A stretch of DNA of 64,000 nt from Mustelus asterias (taxonomy: Eukaryota), in the NCBI RefSeq assembly GCF_964213995.1, contig NC_135815.1, forward strand, positions 49,786,001 through 49,850,000. Direction: 5' to 3'. Of this stretch, positions 1 through 3,000 are shown in pieces. Position numbers: made by a program. Within the stretch, counting starts at the first letter, position 1; the number at the start of each line of letters is the position of its first letter.

Positions 1-3000
1 TGATGTTCCATAAAATGAATATAAGATTGGTAGCTCTCTATGCCAATTCACAATGTTTACCAGAAGTTAGCATTCCATGTTGCTTACCATGAGGTGTAGC
101 AAAGTTTTAGGTCACATCACACTTACTGACCCTGCATATGCCAGTCTTATGCTGTTTGGCAGCTATAAGTATTCTTGGATTAGTTGGCACAATTCTGCAC
201 TTGTCTTTCTGCTGGCCAAGACGCTAAGGAGACAAATTTCCATTTCAAAATTTGCAGAAATGCTTGATGTCTTGCCCACTTGAGAATTATATTTTTATAA
301 GCAGAAAGCACATTTAAAAAATTTCTGACAAAGATGGTTCCAAATATTTTTATTATTCCTGGATTATGGATGGAAAAATCATCCTGAGTTCCTGTTAGTT
401 TAGTTGTTTTTCAGTGAATTCTGCTGGACGTTATGCGTGTGGGAACATCAGATGACCTTAGGCTGTGATGGCCTCTCAGTTGAATAATCTGACATCATGC
501 ATACTCTTGGTTATGCATGATTAATGGTGTCTTGGGTGAGGTACTAGATCATGCAGGTGAAACCATATCCTTACATGAATTAGCACTTACAAGAGAGAAG
601 AGGAGAAAATTGAAAAATACCATGCTAATTGTGTAAAGAGAATATAAGGAAGTGTCATATACTTTGGTTTTTGGGGAGGAAATAAGAGTCTTATGGAAAA
701 TTTCAATGTTCCCAAACATTGTATAAAAGTGACCTTAAATGTTTTCCAATGAAATAGATTTAAGTAGTCTTGGAATAATTTTGTCCATGGTAATTTGAAG
801 GTAATCATTTTTTGTTTTATTTTGCTGCTTAAATGAATTGACAGTATTTTTAATGAAAAAGTTTTAAGGTCAGTTACTAAACGACTATTTTGCTGTGATG
901 TGATTTAAAGTATACTTAGCTTAATATTTTTCCATTGTTGCATTTGAATTCTATTCAAAGAGCACCCCTCACAACAAATCTGTCTACTCTTTTGATCTGA
1001 CAGTTTTGCTGAATGGAATGTTTTGAATGGAATACTATATCGTAGTATGTGAAAGTAATGCAGTGGTTAACTCCTTTACAGCATGCTGTAGAATATTGGA
1101 TATCAGTAAAATTCATAGTTTTTGTTACATTTAGATTATCTCTATGTTGCTGCTTCTGCTGTTCTTCAATCAGCATTCAAATTAGTCTGCTGACCACAGT
1201 TTGACTGTTAATATTTCAGTTAGTATGCTGCCTGAATACAACCCTCTGACATTTGTAATATAAAAATAGTATTCAATAATAAATAAAGAGATGGGTCATA
1301 TCCAAGTTGAAGATCTACATTAATATGTTTCTCTGCACTGATTTAGAATAAACTATACCTCATCTGCAAGTATCATTTCACAAAACTCAAAAGAATTTCA
1401 AGTATCATGCTACATCAATGTGAACGTTTAATACTTATGAACACACTTAACATAGCAATAATGCCATCAAACTATCTTGTAATGTGGCCTAAGCACACTG
1501 ATTAAAATGTTGATATCTGACTCCTGCAGGCGCAGGTTTGAATATTCCCAGCACCAGCTAACACTAGACCTAAGCTGTCTTGCCTACCTGAATGAATGAG
1601 GTTGTGTAAGGATGAACAAAATAAATAAAATGATACAAAATGTCTTCCTTGTCTGTTTAGTTATATGATCAGAATGTGAATTTACTGTTTATAAAACAGC
1701 AAACCTGTTAATACCCTCAGTCACTATGCAATTATTTTAAAATCTTGAACAGCTGGTAAGAAACACTTAACATTGTATTATGTTTTAACTTGCTTTCCTT
1801 TGGAGGCAGGGAATTGTCAAGTAAGTATTATGTATGCATATATTAAATAAAAGCACTTGTATTGATGTTATTTTAAAAAATTATCCGTGTAACACTATGT
1901 ATTAGGCATCCCGGTTTTGTCATTAATTATCAGGTGTTTTTGAATTTTTAATGATTCTTAAGGTTAGTGCATAATGTTGTGATCTCCCCAGAGACTTCTA
2001 GCTGATAGCTGAAAAAATGACACAATATTTCACATTCTAAAACTTTTACAGTAACAAATGACCAAAAGTGCCGTTGATTACATGCTATTTTATTTTTTGT
2101 ACACAAGTTGTACCTTAAAATACAGAAAGCAATGTTCCTCTTTATACTTATCACACATTGTACTTTCTAGAGAATTATAGTCCTTATAGCAAATAGACTA
2201 CAATTGCTCTCAGCTTCCATTCCCATATTCCCATTTTATTGAGTAGCAACTTTTAGTGACTGTCTCCAGATGCTTTCATCAGTTTTTGCAGAATTCCTTA
2301 AATCCACCACCAGCAGCAAAGCATATTCCAATTATTCTACTTCTTCCCCCAGCCATGTTAGAATGAATCTGCCAGAATCCATAGATGGCTGCAGGATACA
2401 TTGCTTCACTTAGAGACTGACCCAATCCGACATCTGGCTGTAGTAACTTGCAAAGCCAAGCAGCTTTTTCTCTCTCCTGACGTACAAAACCCCTGCTCTC
2501 TGTCCGAGATATTCATTGATTTGTAGGAAAAGCCTGTAACCTGGTCTAAAAATACTTCCTTTGCCCTCTTCCCACTGGCAATGTGAAACGCATTCACCTT
2601 ACATCCAGGTAAAAAATGCTGATTAGTTATTCTTGCCATCAATTATTTTTTAGCATAGAAGATTGCTTTACTTTGTGCTATAAACAGCATTCTTCTATTT
2701 TACATATTTACTGCTGATCATTTGACAAAAGCTAAGGCCTAAATAAGTAAATACTAGGGGCTGATACAAGTAGCAATTTATCAGAACCATTATTTAACTA
2801 TTCACTATAAATTTGAATATGTAATTAGGCTACCCTTGAACTCATTAAACCAATGGACTTGATATCTTTATAAAGTGCTTTTTATATAAATAAATACGCT
2901 AAGGCACATCACAATCATGGATAACAAAAACAGATCCAAAGTCAGGTAAGGAGATATGAGATTGAGTGACTGAAAGAGTTGAGTCTTGGCCAGGAGGAGA

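What the first reader, a model, noticed from the sequence alone, without database searches (positions are those of the whole stretch)
1784..1827. 15-nt candidate neural microexon with a GAG acceptor
Seen: branch-like TTTAAC (1784), TGC (1791), a pyrimidine tract, GAG acceptor, 15 nt and a perfect GTAAGT donor in repeat-free sequence; translation is R-QGIV-K in the phase the downstream exons require. Known: SRRM3/4 targets carry UGC just upstream of the 3' splice site. Recalled, unverified: EML5 has an alternative insert RQGVVRGSR here that the EML6 reference protein lacks. Inference: shark EML6 keeps an ancestral microexon that annotation would miss. The competing CAG at 1807-1809 gives 11 nt and a frameshift.
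Basis: partly seen in the sequence, partly recalled or inferred. Interest (0 to 1): 0.7.

Follow-up and report, generated by a model that had tools for sequence, protein, structure and literature searches.

The report
Conserved 15-base microexon in shark EML6
The 15-base stretch is a real, deeply conserved alternative mini-exon of the shark EML6 gene, one of three in the same intron, and gene models of many other vertebrates already contain it, so it is sound but not new.

Summary
The 15-nt exon 1806-1820 (GAG acceptor, GTAAGT donor) encodes (R)QGIV(K). That is exactly the alternative insert found in 37 EML6 protein models in hand, from chimaera, sharks, rays, teleosts, a frog, lizards, a bird and primates. 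It lies in the right intron, order and phase.

The window's exons are 440/440 residues identical to the single Mustelus asterias EML6 model, which lacks the insert. So "annotation would miss it" holds for that species only.

- 7977-7985 (9 nt, GS)
- 845-868 (24 nt, S-IFNEKVL-R)

Both match annotated isoforms elsewhere. All three have UGC 10-22 nt upstream of the acceptor.

The 15+9 pair therefore predates the EML5/EML6 split.

Neural, SRRM3/4-dependent inclusion is inferred from motifs only; no RNA data were available. Verdict: real and ancient, but already in public annotation. Interest is low.

The parts
845..868 (+). 24-nt microexon: first base T, then IFNEKVL, then AG left over. CAG acceptor, GTCAGT donor, UGCUGC at -22/-19.
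   Evidence: Found by peptide scan. It matches SIYNEKVLR in Scyliorhinus canicula X5/X6 and SFFIEKGLR in Amblyraja radiata X2/X4. The degenerate pattern occurs once, with 0/100 shuffles matching. Anatomy.
1784..1805 (+). 3' splice region of the 15-nt microexon: branch-like TTAAC (-21), UGC (-15), TTTCCTTT tract, GAG acceptor.
1806..1820 (+). 15-nt microexon (the finding): G + QGIV + AA.
   Evidence: The peptide is identical to the insert in 37 EML6 models.
1821..1826 (+). GTAAGT donor of the 15-nt microexon.
7977..7985 (+). 9-nt microexon GGGATCCAG: G + GS + AG. AAG acceptor, GTAACT donor, UGCUGC at -13/-10.
   Evidence: It is the only match to 'AG + (K)GS(R) coding + GT/GC' between 1821 and 14475. 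It occurs once in the window, and 4/100 shuffles reach one match. The AGY-serine version has 0 matches. Sequence. GSR-only isoforms exist in Chiloscyllium plagiosum X2 and Polypterus X2.
14473..14551 (+). Constitutive exon, 79 nt: A + PPVSRAAPQPEKLQKNNITKKKKLVE (linker before the third HELP motif).
   Evidence: tblastn with P0001; boundaries and phase.
19902..20031 (+). Constitutive exon, 130 nt, carrying the HELP motif of the third TAPE domain.
   Evidence: Pfam HELP PF03451, E 1.9e-14. Best database hits are EML6 of sharks.
23280..61575 (+). Seven further EML6 exons of the third TAPE domain: 23280-23378, 39648-39821, 44340-44548, 52659-52816, 54730-54844, 59380-59568, 61403-61575.
   Evidence: tblastn. 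All have AG/GT boundaries and consistent phases. Pfam Beta-prop_EML on two of them.

Best explanation
Window 1806-1820 is a genuine alternative cassette microexon of shark EML6. It is the middle one of three tandem, frame-preserving microexons (24, 15 and 9 nt) in the intron that precedes exon 14473-14551.

Inclusion adds QGIVK (15 nt), GS with a rebuilt R (9 nt) and/or SIFNEKVL (24 nt). The insert goes into the roughly 90-residue linker between the second and third TAPE (HELP plus WD-propeller) domains, about 25 residues before the third HELP motif.

**Shown**
- The sequence, splice signals, phase and uniqueness in the window.
- Identity of the peptides and their order to annotated alternative isoforms of EML6 in many gnathostomes, and to EML5 for the 15+9 pair.

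**Inferred**
- The upstream exon, which lies outside the window, ends in AG.
- The exons are used in this species.
- Inclusion is driven in neurons by SRRM3/4 through the UGC elements just upstream of each acceptor, as for the known vertebrate neural microexon programme.
- The inserts tune linker length and charge (+2 for QGIVKGSR), and so how the third propeller unit is presented to microtubules or partners.
For: - Coordinates and signals.
- Each degenerate 'AG + peptide + GT' pattern occurs exactly once in 64 kb, on the + strand and in the expected order. 0/100, 4/100 and 0/100 shuffles reach one match.
- The window exons are EML6: the best hits are shark EML6 at 98%, and nine exon peptides match Mustelus asterias EML6 at 440/440 residues.
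- Junction tally of the 230 EML5/6 proteins in hand:
  - 125 no insert
  - 22 RQGIVKGSR
  - 9 RQGIVK only
  - 4 RGSR only
  - 4 with 24+15+9-type inserts
  - 26 RQGVVRGSR (EML5 type)
  - 11 other
  - 29 junction not found; two of these, Sphaerodactylus P0032 and P0182, also carry QGIVKGSR
- All eight inclusion combinations stay in frame, because each exon starts with one base and ends with two.
- UGC sits at -15, -22/-19 and -13/-10. That is 5 TGC in 3x40 nt, against 0.64 per 40 nt in the window.
- Each donor matches the CAG|GTAAGT consensus (recalled) at 8 of 9 positions (my reading).
- In the passages I read, the preprint 10.1101/2024.09.17.613571 reports a UGC between branch point and AG in 74-79% of SRRM3/4-dependent microexons, strong 5' splice sites, and conserved behaviour from shark to mammals.
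Against: - No RNA evidence of any kind was available, for this species or any other.
- The protein model identical to the window (P0135) lacks all three inserts.
- The supporting models are mostly XP_ records, which I take, from recall, to be computational predictions.
- The acceptor is GAG, used by 0 of the 9 constitutive exons in the window. A CAG lies 4 nt downstream, and its use gives a frameshift and an early stop.
- In the 15-nt exon the UGC lies upstream of the pyrimidine run, not between it and the AG. The branch-like site is only 21 nt from the AG, unlike the long branch-point-to-AG distance the preprint describes.
- The UGC enrichment is only about 2.6-fold over three short stretches, which is weak on its own.
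- No function of this EML6 linker is known to me, and none was found in the papers searched.
Confidence: 0.85

Rival explanations
1. Chance look-alike: a splice-like 15-mer in an AT-rich intron that is never spliced in.
For: Short AG...GT intervals are common in 33% GC sequence. The acceptor is a disfavoured GAG. The closest species' model lacks the exon.
Against: The exact peptide of an annotated orthologous insert sits in the correct intron, order and phase. 0/100 shuffles give a match. Two sister microexons that match other annotated isoforms lie in the same intron.
Confidence: 0.03
2. It is a real alternative exon but not a neural SRRM3/4 target. It is included broadly, or controlled by other factors or tissues; EML5 is reported as highly expressed in testis as well as brain.
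For: - Only motif evidence supports SRRM3/4.
- The UGC position and the short branch-to-AG distance of the 15-nt exon are atypical.
- No GCAUG lies within 250 nt on either side of the 15-nt exon, and for the other two none lies closer than 70 nt downstream. An RBFOX route is therefore not indicated either.
Against: All three microexons carry UGC or UGCUGC within 10-22 nt of the AG. Their sizes (9-24 nt), frame preservation and gnathostome-wide conservation fit the neural microexon class as described.
Confidence: 0.3
3. The main product here uses the CAG at 1807-1809. The resulting 11-nt exon acts as a frame-shifting 'poison' exon that lowers EML6 output.
For: CAG is the commonest acceptor among the window's constitutive exons (5 of 9) and GAG is used by none. 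The two AGs are 4 nt apart. The 11-nt form gives a stop four codons into exon 19902-20031.
Against: All 37 annotated models with this exon read RQGIVK, which needs the GAG acceptor. The Q codon that creates the CAG is itself conserved, including in EML5 RQGVVR. No model in hand shows a frame-shifted product, although predicted protein sets would rarely report one.
Confidence: 0.08
4. The exon is a relic no longer used in this lineage, which is why the Mustelus model lacks it.
For: P0135 is a single model without the insert. Carcharodon, Scyliorhinus torazame and six other chondrichthyan species also show only insert-free models among the members listed.
Against: The coding sequence, both splice sites and the UGC are intact for all three microexons. 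Absence from a model is expected where brain RNA-seq or microexon-aware alignment is lacking. Only 15 of 36 and 15 of 45 cluster members were listed.
Confidence: 0.05

Closest known systems
Annotated EML6 isoforms with the RQGIVKGSR insert, for example XP_043551898.1 (Chiloscyllium plagiosum X1, P0001), XP_072121311.1 (Mobula birostris X4), XP_007890604.2 (Callorhinchus milii X1), and the Papio anubis X1 group (P0159)
   Same: Same gene, same junction (…EE-R | PPVSR…), identical QGIVK peptide, same 15-nt length and phase. The accompanying GS(R) is encoded by the 9-nt exon also present in the window.
   Different: The model identical to the window (Mustelus asterias XP_078085991.1, P0135) does not include it. 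I could compare proteins only, not the orthologous DNA.
EML5 insert RQGVVRGSR (24 proteins named EML5 plus 2 hypothetical, P0332-P0357)
   Same: Homologous position in the paralogue, same 8-residue length, 6 of 8 residues identical to QGIVKGSR. This implies the 15+9 pair existed before the EML5/EML6 duplication.
   Different: I to V and K to R. The search drew its candidates from words of an insert-bearing query, so it cannot say whether the EML5 insert is alternative or constitutive. One protein named EML5 (P0363) lacks it but has EML6-type flanks.
SRRM3/4-dependent vertebrate neural microexons (architecture as described in bioRxiv 10.1101/2024.09.17.613571; passages read)
   Same: Length of 27 nt or less, frame-preserving, near-consensus donors, non-YAG acceptors in two of three, UGC close upstream of the AG, conservation across jawed vertebrates.
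   Different: Tissue specificity and SRRM3/4 response are untested. In the 15-nt exon the UGC precedes the pyrimidine run and the branch-like site is near the AG.
DAAM1 neuronal linker microexon (PMC12056172; only the start of the abstract seen in the listing)
   Same: A conserved microexon that lengthens a linker next to a folded domain of a cytoskeleton regulator.
   Different: Unrelated protein (formin, actin). The DAAM1 function was shown experimentally, whereas nothing is known here.

Membership tests
Orthologue of the annotated EML6/EML5 15-nt cassette exon | Lies in the intron directly upstream of the PPVSR… exon of the third TAPE unit, on the coding strand | tested here: met
   1806-1820 lies upstream of exon 14473-14551 on the + strand.
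Orthologue of the annotated EML6/EML5 15-nt cassette exon | 15 nt, phase 2-in/2-out, encoding QG[IV]V[KR] | tested here: met
   G+QGIV+AA. Identical to the insert in 37 EML6 models.
Orthologue of the annotated EML6/EML5 15-nt cassette exon | AG acceptor and GT donor | tested here: met
   GAG / GTAAGT.
Orthologue of the annotated EML6/EML5 15-nt cassette exon | Upstream exon ends with the two bases that make R with G or A, and S with T | not testable with these tools
   The upstream exon is outside the window: there is no tblastn hit upstream of 14471. The AG ending is inferred from orthologue peptides.
Orthologue of the annotated EML6/EML5 15-nt cassette exon | Transcript evidence in this species | not testable with these tools
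   No RNA-seq or eukaryotic genome collection was on hand.
SRRM3/4-dependent neural microexon | Length 3-27 nt and frame-preserving | tested here: met
   15 nt; the sister exons are 24 and 9 nt.
SRRM3/4-dependent neural microexon | UGC close upstream of the 3' splice site AG | tested here: met
   UGC at -15. UGCUGC at -22/-19 and -13/-10 for the sister exons. Criterion.
SRRM3/4-dependent neural microexon | Strong 5' splice site with a weak or distant 3' splice-site core (long branch-point-to-AG distance) | tested here: inconclusive
   The donor GTAAGT is strong and the GAG acceptor is weak, but the branch-like TTAAC is only 21 nt from the AG. No MaxEnt or SVM-BP scoring was available.
SRRM3/4-dependent neural microexon | Neural-enriched inclusion | not testable with these tools
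   No expression data.
SRRM3/4-dependent neural microexon | Inclusion responds to SRRM3/4 level | not testable with these tools
   No such data. 0 papers pair EML6 or EML5 with 'microexon'. The one paper holding both EML6 and SRRM4 is, by its title and abstract start in the listing, an unrelated exome study.
EML6 gene (EMAP-like, three TAPE units) | HELP motif followed by EML beta-propeller exons, with best hits named EML6 | tested here: met
   Pfam HELP and Beta-prop_EML on single exons. All of the best 120 hits are EML6 or EML6-type; 112 of 120 are named EML6, EMAL6 or EMAP like 6. 440/440 identity to M. asterias EML6.

The most novel reading that the evidence does not exclude
The intron holds a combinatorial three-microexon module (24, 15 and 9 nt, eight in-frame combinations) in the TAPE2-TAPE3 linker.
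- The 15+9 pair is older than the EML5/EML6 duplication and is absent from the four invertebrate-type EML5/6 models seen.
- The module would be switched on in neurons by SRRM3/4 through the UGC or UGCUGC element upstream of each acceptor.
- It would grade the length and charge of a linker that sets how the third propeller unit engages microtubules.

No paper in the searchable library mentions microexons in EML5 or EML6. As a described regulatory module it would therefore be unpublished, even though the isoforms sit in RefSeq.
Probability: 0.4. Interest if true: 0.35.

Novelty: already known. Interest (0 to 1): 0.17.

Why it matters
It matters little for discovery. The exon is in public gene models of at least seven chondrichthyan species and of many bony vertebrates.

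It has modest practical value:
- The EML6 model that matches this window omits three real-looking microexons. This is a typical gap in automated annotation of very short exons.
- The locus is a compact example of tandem microexons conserved across jawed vertebrates and, for the 15+9 pair, between the paralogues EML5 and EML6.

If neural SRRM3/4 control were shown, the locus would add EML5/6 to the cytoskeletal genes tuned by the neural microexon programme. These are poorly understood three-propeller microtubule-associated proteins.

Tried and rejected
- **Exhaustive profile search.** I ran it with P0127 to reach EML5. At 50% clustering, none of the 49 best hits I inspected (P0183-P0231) was a vertebrate EML5. 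P0183 is 64% identical to shark EML6, has echinoderm-like flanks and carries no insert. EML5 was reached instead through a region search with the insert-bearing P0013.
- **Exon in window 1-1800 upstream of the finding.** The GTAAGA at 1757 follows a stretch with stops in all three frames (my reading), and tblastn finds nothing there. The upstream constitutive exon is outside the window.
- **Extra VTESL of the Pristiophorus X3 model.** One near-match at 18351-18365 lacks AG/GT flanks. Rejected.
- **RBFOX-type GCAUG and CU-rich PTBP-type motifs around the three microexons.** Nothing is placed suggestively.
- **Pfam on five intronic ORFs.** Only one weak domain name came back. These ORFs are not part of the finding.
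- **Literature.** EML6+microexon gave 0 papers, EML5+microexon gave 0, and EML6+SRRM4 gave 1 unrelated paper. The EML splice-variant paper PMC12182296 mentions only C-terminal truncation variants of EML5 (passages read).
- **Splice model.** It was searched exon by exon.

Full report
**What is in the window.** The window is AT-rich vertebrate sequence (33-48% GC) with no N.

- Six-frame reading showed a string of WD-repeat-like open stretches on the + strand.
- The exon at 19902-20031, searched alone, returned 269 proteins. The best 120 are all EML6 or EML6-type, and 112 of them are named EML6, EMAL6 or EMAP like 6. The top hits are sharks and a ray at 95-98% identity.
- tblastn with Chiloscyllium plagiosum EML6 X1 (P0001) placed residues about 1341-1785, the third of the three TAPE units, on nine + strand exons between 14473 and 61575.
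- All nine have AG/GT boundaries and mutually consistent phases.
- Pfam on single exons gives the HELP motif (19902 exon, E 1.9e-14) and the EML beta-propeller.
- Nine exon-wise peptides are 440/440 identical to the single Mustelus asterias EML6 model (P0135, XP_078085991.1). The next best is Carcharodon at 430/440.
- Nothing in the window was taken for human sequence.

The splice model was searched exon by exon.

- TTTAAC at 1784-1789
- TGC at 1791-1793
- TTTCCTTT at 1794-1801
- GAG at 1803-1805
- GCAGGGAATTGTCAA at 1806-1820
- GTAAGT at 1821-1826
- the alternative CAG at 1807-1809

With two bases carried in, the exon reads G + QGIV + AA.

**What it is.** In P0001 and in Mobula birostris X4 (P0002), the junction just before the PPVSR exon reads …STEER-QGIVK-GSR-PPVSR…. 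In Pristiophorus X3 and many others it reads …STEER-PPVSR…. The 15-nt stretch therefore encodes exactly the first five residues of an annotated alternative insert, in the correct intron and phase. The degenerate pattern for 'AG, (x)QGIV(K), GT' occurs once in the 64 kb, and 0 of 100 shuffles give a match.

The rest of the insert cannot come from read-through, because GTAAGT gives a stop. I looked for a 9-nt exon able to supply (K)GS(R). Exactly one candidate lies between 1821 and 14475: GGGATCCAG at 7977-7985, with an AAG acceptor and GTAACT donor. It is also the only match in the whole window, and 4 of 100 shuffles reach one match. The AGY-serine version has none.

Some Scyliorhinus canicula (X5/X6) and Amblyraja radiata (X2/X4) models carry a further eight residues, S-IYNEKVL-R and S-FFIEKGL-R, before QGIVK. 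A peptide scan found S-IFNEKVL-R at 845-868, with a CAG acceptor and GTCAGT donor. It occurs once in the window, and 0 of 100 shuffles match.

Each of the three exons starts with one base and ends with two, so all eight combinations stay in frame. No intra-window repeat overlaps any of them.

**Distribution in annotation.** Of the 230 EML5/6 proteins in hand (P0183-P0331 from the representatives job are excluded), the junction reads as follows:

| Junction | Proteins |
|---|---|
| No insert | 125 |
| RQGIVKGSR | 22 |
| RQGIVK only | 9 |
| RGSR only | 4 |
| 24+15+9-type insert | 4 |
| RQGVVRGSR (EML5 type) | 26 |
| Other | 11 |
| Junction not found by my pattern | 29 |

- Two of the 29 unfound, Sphaerodactylus P0032 and P0182, also carry QGIVKGSR. 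That makes 37 EML6 models with QGIVK.
- These 37 include chimaera, sharks, rays, Polypterus, teleosts, Ascaphus, Lacerta, Corvus, Echinops and Old World monkeys (names).
- Among chondrichthyans, 31 proteins were listed and 27 span the junction. Of those 27, 11 have QGIVK (7 of 16 species), 1 has GSR only, 1 has SLLLSRGSR and 14 have no insert.
- Only 15 of 36 and 15 of 45 cluster members were listed, so the species counts are lower bounds.
- The M. asterias model has no insert.
- Three echinoderm EML5/6-type models (P0077, P0082, P0118) and P0183 have no insert at this junction. A fourth echinoderm model, Amphiura P0109, carries a different, longer insertion.

**EML5.** The exhaustive representative search did not isolate vertebrate EML5. 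A region search with the insert-bearing Eulemur EML6 (P0013) did.

- 26 proteins read DER-QGVVR-GSR-PPVSR at the homologous position: 24 are named EML5 and 2 are 'hypothetical' with the same flanks.
- The candidates were drawn by words shared with an insert-bearing query. The result therefore says nothing on whether the EML5 insert is alternative.
- One protein named EML5 (P0363, Thamnophis) lacks the insert but has EML6-type flanks.

**How it probably works.**

*Shown*
- The exon's anatomy.
- UGC at -15. The sister exons have UGCUGC at -22/-19 and -13/-10. Together that is 5 TGC in 120 nt, against 0.64 per 40 nt in the window.
- Donors one mismatch from the consensus, which I recalled rather than tested (my reading).
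- Acceptors GAG and AAG for two of the three microexons. The nine constitutive exons use CAG (5), TAG (3) and AAG (1).

*From the literature.* The passages I read in bioRxiv 10.1101/2024.09.17.613571 describe SRRM3/4-dependent microexons as having:
- strong 5' splice sites;
- a weak 3' splice-site context with a distant branch point and pyrimidine tract;
- a UGC between branch point and AG in 74-79% of cases;
- behaviour conserved from shark to mammals.

*Inferred*
- These three exons belong to that programme.
- Their inclusion lengthens the inter-TAPE linker and adds basic residues to it. I place the linker at roughly residues 1277-1366 of P0001, using the repeat alignments. The insert lies about 25 residues before the third HELP motif.

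*Against the regulatory inference for the 15-nt exon*
- The UGC precedes the pyrimidine run.
- The branch-like TTAAC is only 21 nt from the AG.
- A CAG lies 4 nt downstream of the acceptor. Its use gives an 11-nt exon and a stop four codons into the next constitutive exon but one.

**Novelty.** The exon is in public protein models of many species, so it is already known as an annotation fact. It is missing from the model that matches this window.

No paper in the searchable library pairs EML6 or EML5 with 'microexon' (0 and 0 papers). The only paper with both EML6 and SRRM4 is unrelated by its title and abstract start (listing only). PMC12182296 mentions only C-terminal truncation variants of EML5 (passages read).

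**Left unchecked**
- DNA-level conservation in other sharks and at EML5 loci.
- Any RNA evidence.

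Noticed in passing
window 7977-7985: A 9-nt microexon (GGGATCCAG, AAG acceptor, GTAACT donor, UGCUGC at -13/-10) supplies the GS(R) part of the annotated insert.
   Followed up: yes
window 845-868: A 24-nt microexon (S-IFNEKVL-R, UGCUGC at -22/-19) matches extra residues in Scyliorhinus canicula X5/X6 and Amblyraja radiata X2/X4 EML6 models.
   Followed up: yes
proteins P0013, P0125, P0007, P0053, P0073 (no window coordinates; the upstream exon lies outside the window): Eulemur and Phocoena EML6 models read RYGVVRGSR and RYGVARGSR instead of RQGIVKGSR. 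Turtle, lizard and carp models start 'RY…' and then diverge. This looks like use of a downstream donor, or read-on past the donor of the upstream exon, giving a second way to add five similar residues.
   Followed up: no
protein P0132 (Hemiscyllium ocellatum X3); window 1-14470: This model has SLLLSR in place of RQGIVK. Four LLLS-coding sites exist in the intron, but none was examined for splice sites.
   Followed up: partly
protein P0003 (Pristiophorus X3); window 14552-19901: This model has five extra residues (VTESL) between the 14473 and 19902 exons. The only near-match in the window (18351-18365) lacks AG/GT flanks.
   Followed up: yes
window, e.g. 5113-5886 (+), 15261-15675 (-), 53423-53906 (-), 55896-56114 (+), 62587-63051 (+), 63543-63998 (+), 57737-58249 (-): The introns hold many interspersed-repeat ORF fragments on both strands that share similar peptide stretches. 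Pfam named only one of the five tested (PF09004 ALKBH8_N on 57737-58249). They look like decayed retroelement copies and are unrelated to the finding.
   Followed up: partly
window 40001-44000: This is the highest-GC stretch of the window (0.46-0.48), with long open stretches on the + strand (41366-41677, 42447-42935). One of them had no Pfam match.
   Followed up: no
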